Part shown: positions 1,609 through 14,891 of the stretch, piece by piece | Layout of the letters: every line of letters begins with the position of its first letter | How positions within the stretch are numbered: the stretch's first letter is position 1 | Origin: a virus | Taxonomy: Duplodnaviria; Heunggongvirae; Uroviricota; Caudoviricetes | Virus record (IMG/VR): IMGVR_UViG_3300023210_000016 | Reading direction: 5' to 3' (one strand) | DNA length: 15,744 nucleotides | Position numbers and translations under genes: made by a program | The notes under the pieces: generated by a model | Told to the model about the DNA's origin: nothing | Databases searched by the model: none | What the model saw: only the letters and a program-made list of their open reading frames with translations

Positions 1609-2076
1609 TTAATCTACAGACGTGATCTCGATTTTGCGAGGCAGAAATTCTTCTGGAATTTCACGCTCTAGGGTGATAAGCAATAGCCCATTCCGTGATT
1701 GAGCATCATTTACCTTGATATGCTCGGCCAAATCCCATGATCTGCTGAAAGAGCGGGTGCTAATTCCACGATGCAGGTACTCAGTATCGGTTTCTGTCCG
1801 ATCATCACGCGATTTTCCCTCAACAACGAGTGTGTTGCGGTCCAATGTGATGTCAATTTCGTCCATATCAAACCCAGCAATTGCCAGTTCAATGGTGAAC
1901 TTGTTGTCATTTTGTTTGATGATGTTGTAGGGTGGGTAGCTGGATGCATTATCTGCTTGTCCTAGCATCTTTTCCACCATGGATTCAAACCCAACACCGT
2001 GTTGGTTAAATGAATTCATAAATTGTGGAAGGTCTCTCGTGCGCAAAGTGCGCGGTCGTCTGTCGTTTCTTGGCAT
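1609..2076 (-). CDS. hsp20: Small heat-shock protein, Hsp20/alpha-crystallin family (IbpA/IbpB type)
   Basis: Motifs SYPPYNI, IELAIAGF, EYLHRGIS.RSF.R.W.LA, NGLL.I.LEREIPE and PRKIEI. SD is AAGGAG. Confidence 0.95.
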   Translation of the reverse strand: MPRNDRRPRTLRTRDLPQFMNSFNQHGVGFESMVEKMLGQADNASSYPPYNIIKQNDNKFTIELAIAGFDMDEIDITLDRNTLVVEGKSRDDRTETDTEYLHRGISTRSFSRSWDLAEHIKVNDAQSRNGLLLITLEREIPEEFLPRKIEITSVD

Positions 2077-3446: not shown

Positions 3447-3711
3447 TGTAATCATACTTCCAATGAGTGCAATCTGTCACTAGTCGGCTAGGTGGCAAGA
3501 AAGTGTAATGACCCCAATGTGTATCAATTGCGCAAAATTCTGACCCGTTGTCGCACTTCGCTCGATATGAAACGTCTTGCTCTCTGATATTGCCTCGGGC
3601 CAGTTCTGTACAAGCGTTAAATATTTCTCGATGTTTACAAGACAGACAGTCGCCTTTCCCTTTGATCATTTTAATCAAAACTTCGTCTGAAACTACTGTT
3701 TTATTTTCCAA
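3439..3711 (-). CDS. Small Cys-rich protein (about 90 aa; start uncertain)
   Basis: TTG at 3711 overlaps the upstream stop and gives (M)ENKTVVSDEVLIKMIKGKGDCLSC, which is colinear with its downstream paralogue. Confidence 0.65.
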   Translation of the reverse strand: MENKTVVSDEVLIKMIKGKGDCLSCKHREIFNACTELARGNIREQDVSYRAKCDNGSEFCAIDTHWGHYTFLPPSRLVTDCTHWKYDYNG

Positions 3712-4996
3712 GGACGTTTTCACGTGACAATGCTTTCCTGATTTGGTCTTTTTGTTCATCTGATAGATCATCTAACTGTACACTACCAGCACGTAGGTCG
3801 TCAATCAAATTCGTCACTTCTTCTTGAACTTCTTCATCATTTCTTTCTTCTACCCATTTCTGACCACTGAAACGATACAGTTTATTGGGCATTTGATCCA
3901 CACGGACGTACATATCATCTTTGCGTGGGTTATTGGGGAATGCTGTCCCGAAATCTACTGCTCCATCCTCGCGGCGATCATGATCGGCGACTATTGGGAT
4001 AGGGTTAATGCTCGGGACACGTGGTTTCTTTTCGACCAGTTCATATTTGTTATTCAGGCTTTCGATAGCTTTATCACGCTTCAGTATCTCTTTTTGAAGG
4101 CGCACAACTTCGTGGTTCATCTCATTGATCTTGTCATTGTTTTCGATTTCAATGATCTTCTCGACTTCTTTGATAACTTCTACGGGCGTCTCAACCACTC
4201 GCTCAACGATACGCTCAACGAATACTTCCTTTTCAACAGGGACTTCGACACGCTTCTCCACTTCGATTTCTTTGATAACCTCGACTGGTACCTTAACTTC
4301 AATGTATTCGGTAACGGGAAGTTCGACCTCCACGATCTTTTCGACAATTTTCTCGACTTCGACAACTTTTTCAACTTCTACCTCTACGATCTTCTCCACG
4401 ATCTTTTCGACTTCGACAATCCTATCGACAACAACTTCTTTATCTCGTTCCACGATGACTTCGACTGGAACTTCAACGGTGACAATCTTTTCCACTTCGA
4501 CTTCTTTGATAACTTCGACCGGTACTTCCACGTCAACGAACTTGGTGACCTCGACCGGTACTTCCACGTGTCGTATGACCTCAACTTCAACTTCAACTTC
4601 AACGATTTTCTCAACTTCTACCTCTACTATCTTGTCAACTGGTACCTCAACATTGTGGTTGACAATCCGCTCAACGATACGGTCTGGCCCCTGAACTTCG
4701 ATCTCGACAATTTTTTCAACGATTTTCTCAACTTCTACCTCTACAATCCTATCAACTGGTACCTCCAGTACCTTCTCGACAATTGTTTCCACTTCGACTT
4801 CTTTGATAACTTCCACCGGAACTTCAACTTCGACGGGTACTTCAACTTCGACGGGTACTTCAACATATTCAATGATTGGGGGTGATAATGTTTCCACGGT
4901 TCGGATGACCTCAACCTCAACGATTTTCTCAACGGGAACCTCTACGGTTTCAGGCGGTAAACTCTTAAGATACTCTATTTCGGCTATTAATTCAAG
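3701..4996 (-). CDS. Val/Glu/Lys/Pro repeat protein with a C-terminal globular domain; probably the frameshifted C-terminal part of 4987-6801
   Basis: The track ORF starts at GTG 4897, but the frame is open upstream to the A9 run with no ATG/GTG/TTG and already encodes repeats (LELIAEIEYLKSLPPETVEVPVEKIVEVEVIRT). The C-terminus includes FGTAFPNNPRKDDMYVRVDQMPNKLYRFSGQKW. Confidence 0.8.
   Translation of the reverse strand, partial: LELIAEIEYLKSLPPETVEVPVEKIVEVEVIRTVETLSPPIIEYVEVPVEVEVPVEVEVPVEVIKEVEVETIVEKVLEVPVDRIVEVEVEKIVEKIVEIEVQGPDRIVERIVNHNVEVPVDKIVEVEVEKIVEVEVEVEVIRHVEVPVEVTKFVDVEVPVEVIKEVEVEKIVTVEVPVEVIVERDKEVVVDRIVEVEKIVEKIVEVEVEKVVEVEKIVEKIVEVELPVTEYIEVKVPVEVIKEIEVEKRVEVPVEKEVFVERIVERVVETPVEVIKEVEKIIEIENNDKINEMNHEVVRLQKEILKRDKAIESLNNKYELVEKKPRVPSINPIPIVADHDRREDGAVDFGTAFPNNPRKDDMYVRVDQMPNKLYRFSGQKWVEERNDEEVQEEVTNLIDDLRAGSVQLDDLSDEQKDQIRKALSRENVLGK
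4150..4945 (-). repeat. Degenerate coding repeats (EKIVEVE / VEVPVE / VIKEVE units)
   Basis: Includes an 18-bp tandem ACTTCAACTTCGACGGGT x2.4 (4821-4864) and an exact 19-bp pair TCGACCGGTACTTCCACGT at 4515-4533 and 4551-4569. Boundaries are approximate. Confidence 0.85.
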
Positions 4997-6801
4997 TTTT
5001 TTTTTGAATCTTGGTCGATGGTTGCTTCAAGTTCAGCTAACTTATTATCCAATTCTTCGATCATGTCGGCACTACTATCGGATAGACTACGTTCTTCGGC
5101 CAAATCATCGCGAACACCCACAAGCTCATTCTCTAACTCGATAATGCGATCAGCTTTAAGCTCATGACGATCTTGCATTGTGCGAACCATTTCAAGCTTC
5201 ACTTCATCATCTGCTTCTAAACCGATAATAGTATCCTTGAATTTCTCAATGGCATCATCATGATGGCGTTGCATCTCTGTGATCTTTTCACGATCTTCTA
5301 CAGGGATTTCAATGGTGATCTCTTTGATGATTTCGACAGGGATTTCGATCTCAACCGGAATCTCGACCTCAATGTATTCAGGCTCACGCGAACGTAAGGT
5401 TGTATTCTCGTCATCCAGTTCTACTAATGCGGACTCGGCATCTTTCAACTGTGATTTGTAAGAGTCACGATCAGCTTCAATCATATGAATATCATCTAAT
5501 TTGTGCTTGTATTCTTGTTCTTCGTGCTCTTCTTCTTCCTTGCGTTTTGCAAGCCTGTCTTCTATCGCCCATTTAAACGTCATGGTAGCACCAAGGAGCA
5601 ACACGATAGCGAATGGGTCAAATACAGCAACAATGACAATGATCACCCAACTCACTGCAGCTTCTAATGTAGACCGATTCGCATCTTCTCCATACACTAG
5701 ATCGGCGATGTATTTGATTGGACCAACTTCGGCCTCAAGCTTTCTGTGTCTGGATTCAATGATGAACTTCTCTTCGTTCAAGTCATCGATCTGGGCAGTG
5801 GCGGTATTGATTTTGTCCTCGAACGATACGATCTTATTATCAACATTGTCATTGGTTGTTCCAGCGGACGCATTGTATTTGCTGATATTCGTGTTAGCTT
5901 CCTTGATGATAGGAGCGATTGTTTCTCTGATCTTGGTAATACCAGACTGAACAACACCGATATCATCGCGTAGTCGTTTATTGATATTACGAATTTCACG
6001 CTGTGCTGATGCGGCTACACCAAGCTCGGCCTTCTTGGCGCGATCCATTTGATTGTTCAGGACTTTACGTTCTGGCTGTTGTTGCTGACGCAATTCTGCA
6101 CCTTTGGCCACTAGATCGGTGTCGCTGAATGCTCCGCGTTGAATACCACCTTTAGTGTATGCTTCCACGTCTTTATTCAATTCGGCGATCTTGTTCTCGG
6201 CGATCTTGATATCACGTTCTGCTCGGGTTCTAGCTTGGGCCATGCGAGTCTGTTGTTGCTCGACCTCAAGATTTGCCTGAGTTCTCAGGGATTCGATTTG
6301 TTGTTTTTCACGATTAATGCTTGGCTGAATACGGGCCTCGGCGTCTTCGATGCGTTGGCGTTCCCGAACAACCAATGAATCAATACGGGATGTTCCGCCG
6401 CCAGTGTTTAATCGTTCTATTTCGGTGTTCCAGCGTTGTATCTTCACTTTTTCTCGGACAATTGTTTCAGCAAGCCGATCAATCTTTGCTACTTCTTCAA
6501 CTGTTGCAGAAGTTTGTTCTATGTGAGCTTTTGAGAGATATCCGAATACACCCATACTGGTGATAAACATGATAACGATGACTGCGGTTGTAAGGTATGC
6601 TCTGGCGATCTTCGGTGCTCGATGCCAATACATGTGTAGCCATATCGTCGTGACAACTTTACCAAGTTCCAATGCGGAACCAAGAATAGCAATAGCTAGG
6701 GCCTTGGCTGCGAATATAGCAGTTAAGCCGAGAATGGAATAGTATGCTGCTGATCCAGAAATGATCAAAGCTACAGTAAGTAAGAGAACACCAAATATCA
6801 T
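4987..6801 (-). CDS. Membrane-anchored long coiled-coil protein (604 aa; 1033 aa if fused to the downstream ORF)
   Basis: Three N-terminal hydrophobic segments, about 290 aa of E/Q/K/R-rich helical sequence, a further TM (VSWVIIVIVAVFDPFAIVLLLG), then an acidic coiled coil ending DSKKNLN-stop. Confidence 0.9.
   Translation of the reverse strand: MIFGVLLLTVALIISGSAAYYSILGLTAIFAAKALAIAILGSALELGKVVTTIWLHMYWHRAPKIARAYLTTAVIVIMFITSMGVFGYLSKAHIEQTSATVEEVAKIDRLAETIVREKVKIQRWNTEIERLNTGGGTSRIDSLVVRERQRIEDAEARIQPSINREKQQIESLRTQANLEVEQQQTRMAQARTRAERDIKIAENKIAELNKDVEAYTKGGIQRGAFSDTDLVAKGAELRQQQQPERKVLNNQMDRAKKAELGVAASAQREIRNINKRLRDDIGVVQSGITKIRETIAPIIKEANTNISKYNASAGTTNDNVDNKIVSFEDKINTATAQIDDLNEEKFIIESRHRKLEAEVGPIKYIADLVYGEDANRSTLEAAVSWVIIVIVAVFDPFAIVLLLGATMTFKWAIEDRLAKRKEEEEHEEQEYKHKLDDIHMIEADRDSYKSQLKDAESALVELDDENTTLRSREPEYIEVEIPVEIEIPVEIIKEITIEIPVEDREKITEMQRHHDDAIEKFKDTIIGLEADDEVKLEMVRTMQDRHELKADRIIELENELVGVRDDLAEERSLSDSSADMIEELDNKLAELEATIDQDSKKNLN
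4996..5005 (-). other. A9 run / A_AAA_AAC slippery site linking the two ORFs by a -1 shift
   Basis: The minus strand reads TCA AAA AAA AAC TTG AAT TAA TAG. The -1 frame reads AAA CTT GAA TTA ATA GCC and runs into 3701-4996. Confidence 0.65.
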
Positions 6802-6815: not shown

Positions 6816-7619
6816 TTAGGTTTGTGTGGTGGGGAATTGTTCGGTCGCGATAGTGTAGTTACTGGTATATCTTGCAACATCTTTTGTGACACGAAATTCA
6901 TCAATCCAACCAGTATGGGCACCATTTGTGGCGGCGATGCTATCAATGTTATCACCAATTCTGACAACATTGTTACCATTTGTATAATCGACTGAATCGG
7001 CAAATTGTCCTACATCTACGCCATCGATAAAGATATAAGATGTTCCGCCAGTTCTTGTCCATGCAAAGGCATACCATGTTCCCGCAACTACATTTGCACC
7101 AGATGATAAATGTGACGCACCATTATAAATATGTACTTCGTTACGCCAAGATGCAGTTACATGATTTGGTCCCATTGTTTCAATAGCCCATGGCGTGGCA
7201 GTAAGTCCTGCCCTGCCATCCATAATGGACTGGCCAGCGTCATTATGATCTACGCCATATGCCGCTACTTTGAAACGACATTCAATAGTAAAATCACCAG
7301 TCCCAAACACTAATTCTGTGCCAGCATCAACGGAGGCATAGTTGCCATCTGCGATACCGCCGGGCTTCAATGATGCTGTACCAAATACTTTATCGGCAGT
7401 ATCCAATTCAGCAGCACCTGCCGCCGTAATTGTTTTTAGACCTGTCTCATCAACAAATGTGGTGGACGCATCTGTTCCATCGAAACGTGAATATAATACA
7501 ACATTATCCCAATAATCATCGGTTGATGGGGCAGGAGCACCACCACCAGCTTTAATTACTGCTGCTGCAGAACCCGCTGCGCCTTGTACGCCGGGTCCGG
7601 GAACACCCAATCCAAACAT
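6816..7619 (-). CDS. LamG/concanavalin A-like lectin-domain protein, likely virion-associated (267 aa)
   Basis: Motifs DDYWDNVVLYSRFDG, FGTGDFTIEC, GTWYAFAWTRTGG...IFIDGV and GWIDEFRVTKDVARYTSN, after a Gly/Ala/Pro N-terminal linker. Start moved to ATG 7619, 1 nt after the upstream stop. Confidence 0.85.
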   Translation of the reverse strand: MFGLGVPGPGVQGAAGSAAAVIKAGGGAPAPSTDDYWDNVVLYSRFDGTDASTTFVDETGLKTITAAGAAELDTADKVFGTASLKPGGIADGNYASVDAGTELVFGTGDFTIECRFKVAAYGVDHNDAGQSIMDGRAGLTATPWAIETMGPNHVTASWRNEVHIYNGASHLSSGANVVAGTWYAFAWTRTGGTSYIFIDGVDVGQFADSVDYTNGNNVVRIGDNIDSIAATNGAHTGWIDEFRVTKDVARYTSNYTIATEQFPTTQT

Positions 7620-7620
7620 A

Positions 7621-7947
7621 TTATAGCATTTCCGTGATGTATAGAAGACCACCAGTGGAGTCTTGGATCACAGCGATATTTTGAACCAAAACACTGTCGC
7701 CAACATCACCAAGTTCAAAATACTCTGGAACGTTTGCTGGCATGAACATATCTTCGGCAGTTGCAATTGGAGTTGCGCCGAACTTGACATGGCAGTCTTC
7801 TGTTGCGATTAAACGAACAACAGTTGAATTTGTGATTGCGGTTGTGGTAGGAACGGAACTGGTAGCGAATGTCAAAACAATTGTTTGTCCGGGCATCAGT
7901 ACCTGAACATTGCGCTTATTGGCGTCTGTGTGTAGTGTGGTGGCCAT
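7621..7947 (-). CDS. Small beta-rich protein, possibly a virion decoration or tail accessory (108 aa)
   Basis: Strong AAGGAG SD. Alternating hydrophobic strands (VVRLIATEDCHVKFG, IAVIQDSTGGLLYITEM). Adjacent to the LamG gene. The function is an inference. Confidence 0.75.
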   Translation of the reverse strand: MATTLHTDANKRNVQVLMPGQTIVLTFATSSVPTTTAITNSTVVRLIATEDCHVKFGATPIATAEDMFMPANVPEYFELGDVGDSVLVQNIAVIQDSTGGLLYITEML

Positions 7948-12739: not shown

Positions 12740-13093
12740 ATGAAATAACAATGGGACAACCACTTGGAATTCACATTCGTAGAAATTCACTACTATAACG
12801 GTAGTTACAAAATGCTATTTAAGGGCGAGGGACCATGGGGTGGGCCTCGCTCTTTTTCGTTGTACGAGTTTGAAACATTCGAAAAGATGTTCCCTCCCAG
12901 TCAAGCAGAATTCACCAAAGGCAAACAAGCTTACCATACATTCATGAAACATAAGGAGCAAAATCATGGAAATCAGAGAACTGACAGTAGACACACACGA
13001 AAAAGTAATACACGCAACCGACTCAAAGAGTGGATTGGACTGTTATATCGCAATACACAGCACAAAATTAGGGCCATCTTTGGGCGGAACTAG
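12740..13093 (+). other. Uncertain ORF: ATG-AAA-TAA followed in frame by 114 sense codons (interrupted gene, TTG-12764 gene or non-coding leader)
   Basis: ATG 12740 is in frame with the track ORF 12764-13093 but is interrupted by TAA at 12746-12748. The 3' 128 nt overlap the dehydrogenase gene. Confidence 0.35.
12821..12857 (+). terminator. Terminator-like hairpin in the leader of the dehydrogenase
   Basis: AAGGGCGAGG-GA-CCA-UGGGG-UGG-G-CCUCGCUCUU, a 10-bp outer stem with one G.U pair. A U5 tract lies at 12853-12857. Confidence 0.5.
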
Positions 13094-13979
13094 GTTCTGG
13101 TCATACAAGAGTGCTCCAGAAGCTCTCACAGACGCTCTACGGCTCTCTGAGGGCATGACTTACAAGAATTCTTTGGCTGGGCTTGATCTCGGCGGGGGAA
13201 AAGCTGTAATCAACCTTCAAGACACGGAAAAGACTCCAGAATTGCTTCGTGCATACGGGGAAGTGGTTGATAGCTTGGGCGGCACATACATCACAGCAGA
13301 AGATGTCGGGTGTAAACCGGGCGATCTCGAAATCATCGCAGAAACCACCAAACACACTGTTAATCCACGAGTTGGTGATCCAAGTCCTGCAACTTCATAT
13401 GGCGTATTGAAGGCCATGGAAGGTGCGTTGATGGTTCACAAGCAATATCCTTCATTCAAAGGTATTCGAGTGATGGTCCAAGGACTCGGCAATGTTGGTT
13501 TTGGACTATGTGAGATGTTGATGCAGAAGGGCGCAATGGTATATGGCTCAGATATCAATCCGGAAGCGGTGCAACGTGCGTCAGATGCCGGTGTATCGAT
13601 TGTTCATCAGGCTCACATGTTTGATGGCATATATGATGTATATGCTCCGTGTGCGTTAGGCGCAACCGTGAATGATGCTTCTATTAGGATGATGAAAATA
13701 GATATTATCTGCGGTTCAGCGAACAATCAATTGGAAACACCTGAATTGGCCCGAGTATTGAAGGCCAAAGGCATTACGTATGTTCCTGATTATCTGGCTA
13801 ATGCTGGTGGAGTGATTAATTGCTATCGTGAGTTCGGCATGGTTCCTACTGATTTCCATACTGCAGCAATCATTGATGGAATCTATCATAGAACTGTGAA
13901 GTGTTTGAAGGATGCAAACAGAGAAGCCACCACGTCAACTGCAATAGCTGATGCGATGGCTTTATCTAGATTGACTTAA
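12966..13979 (+). CDS. ldh: Glu/Leu/Phe/Val dehydrogenase family, leucine-dehydrogenase-like (337 aa)
   Basis: Motifs AIHST.LGP.LGGTR, GMTYKN, LGGGKAVI, YITAEDVG, GDPSP.T..GV, QGLGNVG (GxGxxG), APCALG, GSANNQL and YVPDYLANAGGVI. SD is AAGGAG. Confidence 0.93.
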   Translation: MEIRELTVDTHEKVIHATDSKSGLDCYIAIHSTKLGPSLGGTRFWSYKSAPEALTDALRLSEGMTYKNSLAGLDLGGGKAVINLQDTEKTPELLRAYGEVVDSLGGTYITAEDVGCKPGDLEIIAETTKHTVNPRVGDPSPATSYGVLKAMEGALMVHKQYPSFKGIRVMVQGLGNVGFGLCEMLMQKGAMVYGSDINPEAVQRASDAGVSIVHQAHMFDGIYDVYAPCALGATVNDASIRMMKIDIICGSANNQLETPELARVLKAKGITYVPDYLANAGGVINCYREFGMVPTDFHTAAIIDGIYHRTVKCLKDANREATTSTAIADAMALSRLT

Positions 13980-14536
13980 CACTCTTTGTGGTAAAAAAGG
14001 TGTTCGCCCTCTTTGGTAGCAAATTTCATTTGTTTGCGCCACGAGGGTTTAACATAATCCGCGTGATAGTGGGTGATCAACCATTTATCCGGGACGCCAA
14101 CATCTACTTCAAACGTGTCATCCCATAATTGTCTGTACACAATGCTAGCAATTGACAGCGCAGTGTTCCATGCATGCCTCTCGCGGACTTTATCGGATTT
14201 CCCATCCAGTGTCCATGAGAATTGTGAGATATATCTACGCTTCTTTTTGACCCATTTCTTTTGCCAAACGACATCATAGATATTATCGGGATACGCTTCG
14301 CATCTGGCTCTGGCGACGGTGACCTGTGCCACCAAGAATTGCCCCTTCACCGATTGATCTCGTGCTTCGAAATAGATGTTGCATGCCAAGTGGCCGATCT
14401 GGTCTGTTTTATCGAGTTTTTCACAGTTCACAATGGATGGTTTAGCATCCGCAACTGCTACAAAGATCACAGCGATAATGGCTGACAAGCAGAACGTATA
14501 AATCACGGATGCGATGGCTTGTGAGATTTTATTCAT
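13976..14536 (-). CDS. Cell-wall hydrolase, SleB/CwlJ (Hydrolase_2) family, with an N-terminal signal or anchor (186 aa)
   Basis: Motifs LACNIYFEARDQS.KGQ..VAQV, QFSW and THYHADYVKPSW...IGEHLFY-like (KEGEHLFY). The start was moved to ATG 14536 because the track's 106-aa extension overlaps the upstream gene. Confidence 0.9.
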   Translation of the reverse strand: MNKISQAIASVIYTFCLSAIIAVIFVAVADAKPSIVNCEKLDKTDQIGHLACNIYFEARDQSVKGQFLVAQVTVARARCEAYPDNIYDVVWQKKWVKKKRRYISQFSWTLDGKSDKVRERHAWNTALSIASIVYRQLWDDTFEVDVGVPDKWLITHYHADYVKPSWRKQMKFATKEGEHLFYHKEC

Positions 14537-14891
14537 CAAGTTGATCCAATGCCCATTCAATGACTTCACCCAAACCGGCACCGCCATTGTAGAATTGCAA
14601 CACAACATCAAGGTTTCCATCGTCGTCTTTGGTCGCTTGAACGATGTCATCGTCTTTTGAGTTAACACATTTCCGGAGATCATACAAATCGTCACGTGCG
14701 ACTTCGAACTCTTTGTAATGCTCTTCGAGCAAGCTGTTATCGTACTTGTCATTGAAGTAGAATTCCTTTTCAGGCAGACCAAGTTCAGCACGAAGTGCCA
14801 TATATGTTCGGCGGCAAACATCTTCCAATGTTTCTTGGTCTTGCTTTTTGACAAGAATCATCTTGCCTACCCATGTTTCAGTTGTACTCAT
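14529..14891 (-). CDS. Phage hypothetical protein (120 aa)
   Basis: ATG 14891 with a GGAG SD, 2 nt after the upstream stop. C-terminal FYNGGAGLGE motif. Confidence 0.75.
   Translation of the reverse strand: MSTTETWVGKMILVKKQDQETLEDVCRRTYMALRAELGLPEKEFYFNDKYDNSLLEEHYKEFEVARDDLYDLRKCVNSKDDDIVQATKDDDGNLDVVLQFYNGGAGLGEVIEWALDQLDE

What the first reader, a model, noticed from the sequence alone, without database searches (positions are those of the whole stretch)
4897..5031. A9 / A_AAA_AAC slippery site fuses the 604-aa coiled-coil ORF to the repeat ORF
Seen: frame 0 ends TCA AAA AAA AAC TTG AAT TAA TAG. The -1 frame opens only a few codons earlier (after a TGA), has no ATG/GTG/TTG until 4897, yet already encodes repeat units, so it must be entered at or near the A run. 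The fusion would be 1033 aa. Established: A_AAA_AAC is an in-phase X_XXY_YYZ -1 frameshift heptamer, and runs of 9 or more A also support transcriptional slippage, as in Thermus dnaX. Inference: two isoforms, with and without the repeat tail, made at a fixed ratio. A one-base homopolymer assembly error explains the sequence equally well.
Basis: partly seen in the sequence, partly recalled or inferred. Interest (0 to 1): 0.75.

Follow-up and report, generated by a model that had tools for sequence, protein, structure and literature searches.

The report
Conserved nine-A recoding site, phage gene
A large uncultured marine phage splits one membrane-protein gene into two reading frames at a run of nine A's; dozens of distant relatives keep the same run, so the phage very probably makes a short and a long protein from one gene by slipping one base, and this is not an assembly error.

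Summary
On the minus strand, a 604-aa ORF (4987-6801) ends TCA AAA AAA AAC TTG AAT TAA TAG. The -1 frame opens at 5026 and has no start codon before GTG 4897. It runs to 3701, and the fusion is 1033 aa.

Homologues are single ORFs that carry both halves, so this is one gene. No near-identical contig was found, so A9 versus A10 could not be read directly.

The comparative evidence is strong. In 123 distinct related phage loci the gene holds 47 A9 and 2 A10 runs in 210 kb. The flanks hold 8 runs of nine (4 A9, 4 T9) in 1233 kb. At 30 of 47 of these runs (the 47 in loci with a complete N-terminus), frame 0 stops within 31 codons and the -1 frame runs further. Run length is uniform within every 90%-identity cluster. 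The window's site aligns with the CTA AAA AAA AAG site of another clade, just before the same EVPVE-type repeats.

I read this as programmed -1 recoding. RNA-polymerase slippage is favoured because the length is exactly nine and no stimulatory RNA structure is present. Ribosomal -1 frameshifting is possible.

The mechanism is known. I found no report of it in this gene family in the literature searched. Earlier notes of this scan describe the same kind of site on other genomes.

The parts
4987..6801 (-). Frame-0 ORF, 604 aa (short isoform), ending SKKNLN plus stop
   Evidence: 55% identical over about 420 aa to more than 7000 metagenomic phage proteins
6523..6798 (-). N-terminal membrane module, three hydrophobic helices (residues 2-93); the most conserved part of the family
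   Evidence: hydropathy; AF2 helices 2-25, 34-57, 64-98; invariant columns
5677..6522 (-). Long helical hairpin (residues 94-375)
   Evidence: AF2 model, pLDDT mostly above 90; only generic coiled-coil matches in the PDB
5572..5676 (-). Fourth hydrophobic helix (residues 376-410), conserved ..VIIxIVAVFDP..
5296..5385 (-). First short cluster of EIPVE-type repeats, inside frame 0
   Evidence: the same repeat type as downstream, and homologues P0123/P0124 have it at the same place
4997..5005 (-). A9 run, the proposed slippage site (T9 on the + strand)
   Evidence: invariant in alignment A3 with 11 distant homologues
4996..5002 (-). In-phase heptamer A_AAA_AAC
   Evidence: codon phase read
4984..4989 (-). 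Tandem frame-0 stops TAA TAG
4987..5026 (-). 40-nt overlap in which frame 0 and frame -1 are both open
3701..5026 (-). Frame -1 ORF, 441 codons plus stop; no start codon in its first 43 codons
4895..4897 (-). First possible start (GTG) in frame -1, 43 codons into the open frame and inside the repeats
4142..4957 (-). About 270 aa of V/E-rich EVPVE / EKIVE repeats (V 33%, E 26%)
3704..4141 (-). Conserved C-terminal module: helix with RDKAIExLNxKYxLVEK, a small beta domain (FGTxFP..RVD..PNKLY..W) and two helices
   Evidence: 478 relatives in the representative search; matches the C-terminus of single-ORF homologues P0082, P0123, P0124, P0126; AF2 pLDDT 88

Best explanation
The two ORFs are one gene. 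The short product is a 604-aa membrane-anchored coiled-coil protein, made when the A9 run is copied and read faithfully. A fraction of expression shifts to the -1 frame at the A9 run. This yields a 1033-aa protein that adds the V/E-rich repeat region and a conserved C-terminal domain.

I commit to RNA-polymerase slippage as the main route. On a nine-base homopolymer the whole RNA:DNA hybrid can realign, one extra A is added, and the A10 mRNA reads ...SKKKLELIAE.... mRNAs with A8 or A11 stop after one codon, so they also give a short form.

Ribosomal -1 slippage on A_AAA_AAC may contribute. I put recoding of either kind at about 0.8. Within that, I favour transcriptional over ribosomal slippage by roughly 60:40.

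Shown: the anatomy, the single-gene status and the conservation of the site. Inferred: the slippage itself, the route and the isoform ratio.
For: 1. One gene. P0082, P0100, P0123, P0124, P0126 and P0266 carry the N-terminal membrane module, EVPVE-type repeats and the C-terminal module in a single ORF.

2. The site recurs. Sixteen IMG/VR loci (ten distinct junction sequences) have CTA AAA AAA AAG. This is A9, or A10 in L013 by a G-to-A change. The codon phase is the same as in the window, the C-terminal half lies in frame -1, the overlap is 52-109 nt, and the first start codon in frame -1 lies up to 465 nt downstream.

3. Alignment A3 keeps the A9 invariant while the flanks vary. The protein junction of the window aligns with that of L044, L073, L075 and L078, directly before the repeats.

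4. Census of 123 distinct loci. Inside the gene there are 47 A9, 2 A10 and 15 A8 runs in 210 kb. Outside there are 4 A9, 4 T9 and 57 A8/T8 runs in 1233 kb.

5. At 30 of 47 A9 runs, frame 0 ends within 31 codons and frame -1 runs further, while frame +1 closes in 0-7 codons. At the other 17, frame 0 is long and frame -1 is short.

6. A9 is present in 42 of 113 clusters at 90% identity, and in every member of each such cluster. It is also present in 8 of 14 MAG contigs.

7. No conserved RNA structure lies near the site. Together with the exact length of nine, this fits slippage at runs of 9 A/T, as in Thermus dnaX (PMC5009743) and tssM1 (PMC4256274).
Against: No reads, RNA or protein data are available for this phage. 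No close relative of the window was found: the best is 55% identity in the N-terminal part and 67% in a 139-aa C-terminal fragment, P0122. The window's own A-run length is therefore unverified.

The N-terminal tree places the window in a different clade from the CTA-A9-G group, so the shared site may be convergent.

The clade nearest by overall identity shifts at another place, using A6-A8 or C_CCA_AAG heptamers. That points to ribosomal frameshifting in at least part of the family.

In L030 the repeat plus C-terminal module is a separate gene with its own ATG, so a fusion is not obligatory.
Confidence: 0.8

Rival explanations
1. Ribosomal -1 programmed frameshifting on A_AAA_AAC (tandem or P-site slippage) is the main route, and RNA-polymerase slippage is minor.
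For: The heptamer is in phase. All nine distinct split members of the clade at 50% identity or more have an in-phase X_XXY_YYZ in a 13-52 nt overlap with only 6-8 A's. L088/L089 have C_CCA_AAG, which cannot support polymerase slippage. In the other clade the site is A_AAA_AAG, the E. coli dnaX heptamer (PMC5009743).
Against: There is no downstream stem-loop or pseudoknot and no nearby upstream SD-like element, either in the window (z 0.25 and 0.65) or in the alignments. Run length peaks sharply at 9 although 7 would be enough for frameshifting. In the window the last base is C; from my own recollection, not checked here, that is a weaker A-site codon for bacterial -1 shifting than AAG.
Confidence: 0.3
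2. One-base homopolymer under-call in the assembly: the true sequence is A10 and the gene is a plain 1033-aa ORF.
For: Homopolymers are typical sites of error. No second contig of this phage was found to check against. The ESM Atlas copy of the 604-aa ORF may come from the same assembly.
Against: A9 at a 0/-1 junction is the family norm in many independent assemblies: 47 A9 against 2 A10. The one A10 in the CTA group is still out of frame. No other gene of the window that I examined looks broken.
Confidence: 0.04
3. A real DNA-level frameshift: a pseudogene, or a phase-variable tract that switches by replication slippage.
For: Poly-A tracts are mutation hot spots, and contingency loci use them.
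Against: Run length is uniform inside every one of the 42 A9-bearing 90%-identity clusters. No in-frame sister is seen in the CTA-A9-G group. The -1 ORF is intact for 441 codons and ends in a conserved domain. The +1 frame is always closed.
Confidence: 0.06
4. Two separate genes: the downstream ORF starts on its own at GTG 4897, and the A9 run merely lies near the end of the upstream gene.
For: In L030, L018, L022, L024 and L052 the C-terminal module is a separate ORF with its own ATG after a gap of 161-298 nt. A GAGG lies about 11 nt before GTG 4897 (read).
Against: The -1 frame is already open 43 codons before that GTG and already encodes repeat units and the junction motif conserved in relatives. 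In relatives the first start codon lies up to 465 nt inside the -1 ORF. Single-ORF homologues are continuous across this point.
Confidence: 0.05

Closest known systems
Thermus thermophilus dnaX (tau/gamma) by transcriptional slippage at a run of nine A/T (Larsen et al. 2000, as described in PMC5009743)
   Same: A homopolymer of exactly nine, no stimulatory RNA structure needed, and nearby stops in the non-productive frames. Two products of different length share an N-terminus.
   Different: In dnaX the long form is the frame-0 product. In the window the long form needs the shift, although the family has both layouts. The gene is unrelated, it is a phage gene, and the slippage is untested here.
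Citrobacter rodentium / Yersinia pseudotuberculosis tssM1 transcriptional frameshifting (Gueguen et al. 2014, PMC4256274)
   Same: An inner-membrane protein gene is interrupted just after a poly-A run. An added A gives a full-length form with a C-terminal domain, and both length variants are made from one gene.
   Different: tssM1 has A11, not A9, and belongs to a T6SS membrane complex that shows no similarity to this protein in my searches. There both forms were shown to be needed, whereas here nothing is known about function.
E. coli dnaX -1 ribosomal frameshift on A_AAA_AAG
   Same: The heptamer A_AAA_AAG lies inside the A9 of most relatives, and A_AAA_AAC in the window. The shift is -1 into a frame that changes the C-terminus.
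   Different: dnaX has an upstream SD-like element and a downstream stem-loop, and none was found here. In dnaX the shifted product is the shorter one.
Tail assembly chaperone gpG/gpGT -1 frameshift of tailed phages (Xu, Hendrix & Duda 2004, cited in PMC5009743 and PMC8163748)
   Same: A recoding site conserved across a phage gene family, giving a short and a C-terminally extended protein at a set ratio.
   Different: The gene, the position in the genome and the protein are different: a membrane coiled-coil protein, not a chaperone next to the tape measure. Site types also differ.

Membership tests
Programmed transcriptional slippage site (bacterial RNA polymerase) | Homopolymeric A or T run long enough to fill the RNA:DNA hybrid (about 9) | tested here: met
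   A9 at 4997-5005. The review states efficient in vivo slippage at runs of 9 A/T and a 9-10 bp hybrid.
Programmed transcriptional slippage site (bacterial RNA polymerase) | The run is conserved in homologues against synonymous drift and is over-represented | tested here: met
   A9 is invariant in A3. There are 47 A9 runs inside the gene against 8 runs of nine (A9 or T9) in six times more flanking DNA, and inside the gene A9 outnumbers A8, the reverse of the flanks.
Programmed transcriptional slippage site (bacterial RNA polymerase) | mRNA population heterogeneous in run length from a uniform DNA template | not testable with these tools
   No reads or transcriptomes are available.
Programmed transcriptional slippage site (bacterial RNA polymerase) | The alternative frame encodes a functional, conserved extension | tested here: met
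   The -1 ORF carries the C-terminal module found in 478 proteins, at the C-terminus of single-ORF homologues.
-1 programmed ribosomal frameshift cassette | In-phase X_XXY_YYZ slippery heptamer | tested here: met
   A_AAA_AAC in the window; A_AAA_AAG and others in relatives.
-1 programmed ribosomal frameshift cassette | Downstream stimulatory stem-loop or pseudoknot at 5-9 nt, or an upstream SD-like element | tested here: not met
   Window folds are no better than shuffles. There is no consensus structure in 11 homologues and no Rfam match.
-1 programmed ribosomal frameshift cassette | Transframe protein with the junction predicted by tRNA slippage | not testable with these tools
   This needs mass spectrometry (SKKN-LELIAE versus SKKK-LELIAE).
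Phage membrane coiled-coil protein family (unnamed; Mosig_00157-like) | N-terminal three-helix membrane module, helical hairpin, then the ..EAEVGPxKYIA.. motif and a fourth hydrophobic helix with ..VFDP.. | tested here: met
   E about 1e-141 to P0002, with more than 7000 hits; invariant columns; tblastn to Pelagibacter phage Mosig.
Phage membrane coiled-coil protein family (unnamed; Mosig_00157-like) | Conserved neighbourhood | tested here: met
   hsp20 lies within the fetched flanks in 134 of 175 loci, and a SleB-type hydrolase in 57. Both are in the window.

The most novel reading that the evidence does not exclude
This phage family has evolved recoding as a general way to set the ratio of a membrane-anchored stalk to a stalk carrying a fibre-like C-terminal domain. 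It uses RNA-polymerase slippage at A9 in some lineages and ribosomal -1 heptamers (including C_CCA_AAG) at a second position in others, with both long-in-frame-0 and long-in-frame--1 layouts. If confirmed, it would be one of the few recoding sites conserved across a family of tailed-phage genes outside the tail chaperone, and, as far as I know, the first to rest on transcriptional slippage.
Probability: 0.45. Interest if true: 0.7.

Novelty: new member of a known kind. Interest (0 to 1): 0.58.

Why it matters
Gene callers split or truncate this gene in thousands of metagenomic phage contigs. Many of the family's proteins of about 580 aa, and many short orphan ORFs holding only the C-terminal domain, are probably two halves of one recoded gene.

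A recoding site kept across such a wide phage family implies that the ratio of the short to the long isoform matters to the phage. It also gives a natural set of variants (A9, A10, heptamers, fused genes, separate genes) for asking how polymerase and ribosome slippage substitute for one another.

The protein itself has an unknown function. It lies between a SleB-type wall hydrolase and hsp20, so knowing its true products is the first step towards finding what it does at the host envelope.

Tried and rejected
**Search for a second copy of this phage, to read A9 versus A10.** All of these found nothing:
- megablast against phages;
- exact protein look-up;
- DNA pattern and protein scans of IMG/VR;
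- two scans of JGI metagenome contigs.

**Other searches without a useful result.**
- The search for proteins longer than 1057 aa found none, which is weak evidence.
- Pfam and PHROGs give no family for either half.
- Rfam gives nothing at the site.
- Folds up- and downstream of the run are no better than shuffles, and alignments give no consensus structure.
- The AF2 model of the C-terminal module has no PDB match. Its BFVD matches are to tail-fibre or receptor-binding proteins, through a beta motif of about 40 aa.
- The AF2 model of the 604-aa part matches only generic coiled coils, and the ESM Atlas gives only viral hypothetical proteins.
- Cultured Pelagibacter phage Mosig has a short 326-aa form with no A9 and no extension, so it cannot serve as a model for the recoding.

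**Readings rejected.** Composition bias does not explain the A9 excess, because A8 is not enriched and only 9 of 49 runs are in phase 0, the phase of a plain AAA AAA AAA Lys triplet. Phase variation is not supported, because run length is uniform within clusters.
Full report
**Observation.** The genes of this region lie on the minus strand. ORF A (4987-6801, 604 aa) ends ...GAT TCA AAA AAA AAC TTG AAT TAA TAG. The A9 run (4997-5005) is the only homopolymer of 8 or more in the window. The -1 frame opens at 5026, after a TGA, and reads ..FKKKLELIAEIEYLKSLPPETVEVPVE... Its first ATG/GTG/TTG is GTG 4897, 43 codons in, and it stays open to 3701. The fused product is 1033 aa, and the +1 frame closes at once with ACT TGA. 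An A9 somewhere in 15.7 kb is not significant on its own (0.6 expected). What matters is that it lies inside the 40-nt overlap of the two frames.

**One gene or two.** ORF A has more than 7000 relatives in metagenomic phage proteins, most of about 580 aa, with about 55% identity over the first 420 residues. A full HMMER search with the last 146 residues of the downstream ORF found 478 relatives. Among them, P0123 (710 aa), P0124 (615), P0126 (648) and P0266 (862) are single ORFs. So are P0082 and P0100 from the first search. These proteins carry four elements in order:
- the N-terminal membrane module;
- a coiled coil;
- EVPVE-type repeats;
- the C-terminal module (RD..I..LN.KY.L.EK, then FGT.FP...RVD..P.KLY...W).

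ORF A itself holds a first small cluster of EIPVE repeats at 5296-5385. The window therefore encodes one gene, interrupted by a one-base frame change.

**Is the interruption an error?** I could not find a second copy of this phage. I therefore asked what relatives do.

A scan of IMG/VR with the C-terminal alignment gave 80 loci, and 77 of them have both halves. Of these 77:
- 51 are single ORFs;
- 7 have the C-terminal module as a separate gene after a gap;
- 19 have the C-terminal half in the -1 frame, overlapping the upstream ORF by 19-109 nt, with an A-run at the start of the overlap.

In 16 of those 19 the sequence is CTA AAA AAA AAG. It is A9, except for one A10 made by a G-to-A change that is still out of frame. 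The codon phase is the same as in the window, and the -1 frame reads KKK(V/L)xEL. The first start codon in these -1 ORFs lies up to 465 nt downstream, so they cannot be separate genes. In a DNA alignment the A9 and the following TT are invariant while the flanks vary, including at synonymous positions. At the protein level the window's junction lines up with that of L044, L073, L075 and L078. In each case it sits at the end of a coiled coil and about ten residues before a PP(K)E that opens the EVPVE repeats.

**Census.** A second IMG/VR scan with the N-terminal alignment added 80 loci. Over 123 distinct loci:

| Region | Size | A9 | A10 | T9 | A8/T8 |
|---|---|---|---|---|---|
| Inside the gene | 210 kb | 47 | 2 | 0 | 15 |
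| Flanks, both strands | 1233 kb | 4 | 0 | 4 | 57 |

This is roughly a 36-fold excess, with a peak at exactly nine. Only 9 of the 49 runs lie in phase 0, where a plain AAA AAA AAA Lys triplet would put them.

Each run marks a change in which frame is open. At 30 of 47 runs (those of the 49 in loci with a complete N-terminus), frame 0 stops within 31 codons and frame -1 continues further, by up to 224 codons. At the other 17, frame 0 is long and frame -1 stops within 21 codons. Frame +1 closes within 0-7 codons in the first set.

A9 occurs in 42 of 113 clusters at 90% protein identity, and in all members of each such cluster. It occurs in 18 of 67 clusters at 70%. Eight of 14 contigs from independent MAG assemblies also carry A9 or A10 in the gene. 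Neither assembly error nor a hypervariable DNA tract can produce this pattern.

**A second site type.** In the clade nearest to the window by overall identity (50-54%), 10 of 17 loci are split at a different place, just before the C-terminal beta domain. All nine distinct ones have an in-phase X_XXY_YYZ in a 13-52 nt overlap: A_AAA_AAG four times, A_AAA_AAA twice, A_AAA_AAC, A_AAA_AAT and C_CCA_AAG. These runs are too short for polymerase slippage, or are not homopolymers at all, so ribosomal -1 frameshifting operates somewhere in the family. Six loci of that clade are fused, at 719-742 aa. A tree of the N-terminal module places the window apart from the CTA-A9-G group. The shared site is therefore either old or has arisen more than once.

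**Mechanism.** No conserved RNA structure lies upstream or downstream of the A9 in 11 homologues. The window's flanks fold no better than shuffles (z 0.25 and 0.65), and Rfam finds nothing. Bacterial RNA polymerase slips efficiently in vivo at runs of nine A or T, and its hybrid is 9-10 bp. Thermus dnaX uses such a run to make two products (PMC5009743). C. rodentium tssM1 uses an A11 run before a stop to make a short and a full-length membrane protein, both of which are needed (PMC4256274).

Three things make polymerase slippage (one added A) my preferred route: the exact length of nine, the absence of stimulators, and the window's final C. From my own recollection, not checked here, AAC is a weaker A-site codon for bacterial -1 shifting than AAG. 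The in-phase heptamer and the heptamer-only relatives keep ribosomal -1 frameshifting as a serious rival. I put recoding of either kind at about 0.8, and within that about 60:40 for the transcriptional route.

**The protein.** The 604-aa part has three N-terminal hydrophobic helices, a long helical hairpin (residues 94-375), a fourth hydrophobic helix (376-410) and a further helical tail. Positive residues after helices 2 and 4 suggest that the hairpin faces the periplasm and the tail the cytoplasm, but this is inference only. The long form adds about 270 aa of V/E-rich repeats and a C-terminal module. That module is modelled with pLDDT 88 as a helix, a four-stranded beta unit and two helices. 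It has no PDB match. In BFVD its beta motif matches tail-fibre and receptor-binding proteins over about 40 residues, and the same motif is repeated 8-11 times in some long proteins. Pfam, PHROGs, PDB and the ESM Atlas give no function. The gene keeps a neighbourhood with hsp20 (134 of 175 loci) and a SleB-type hydrolase (57 loci).

**Known or new.** Slippage at poly-A runs is a known mechanism. I found no paper describing it in this phage family. Earlier notes of this scan describe the same kind of A9 site in membrane coiled-coil genes of other phage genomes. My result was reached on independent data and agrees with them. I file it as a new member of a known kind.

Noticed in passing
L082-L098 (for example L088:6803-6821, L094:6737-6779): The clade nearest to the window (50-54% identity) is split at a second position, just before the C-terminal beta domain. 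The split uses in-phase heptamers with only 6-8 A's, or C_CCA_AAG. Many of the family's proteins of about 580 aa that end ..PKKG, ..PKKE or ..QKKN may be frame-0 products of such genes.
   Followed up: partly
L030:7441-8315: Here the A9 (CCTAAAAAAAAAGTT) leads to a -1 tail of only 46 codons. The repeat plus C-terminal module is a separate gene with its own ATG about 300 nt downstream. The module can therefore exist as a free protein.
   Followed up: partly
window 1609-2076 and 13976-14854; loci L002-L175: The neighbourhood is conserved. hsp20 lies in the fetched flanks of 134 of 175 loci, and a SleB-type (Hydrolase_2) wall hydrolase in 57. Both are present in the window.
   Followed up: partly
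P0125, P0127, P0128, P0150, P0171: The roughly 40-aa beta motif of the C-terminal module (FG..FP..GD.F.RVD..P.KLY..G..W) occurs 8-11 times in tandem in long proteins. Some of these carry Prophage_tail or DUF2793 matches, which suggests a fibre-building unit.
   Followed up: no
window 12966-13979 (+): This is the only long plus-strand ORF among the minus-strand phage genes. It matches the Glu/Leu/Phe/Val dehydrogenase domains (ELFV_dehydrog_N, ELFV_dehydrog), an unusual auxiliary metabolic gene for a phage.
   Followed up: no
window 6816-7652 (-): The gene directly upstream encodes a 278-aa protein with a Laminin_G_3 (concanavalin-like lectin) domain. It resembles parts of large virion or baseplate-wedge proteins in PHROGs. 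No counterpart was found next to the gene in the related loci.
   Followed up: partly
L068:2153-2161; L144, L153, L155-L160: Some relatives carry the A9 with the long product in frame 0. There, slippage would truncate the protein rather than extend it, which is the layout of Thermus dnaX.
   Followed up: partly
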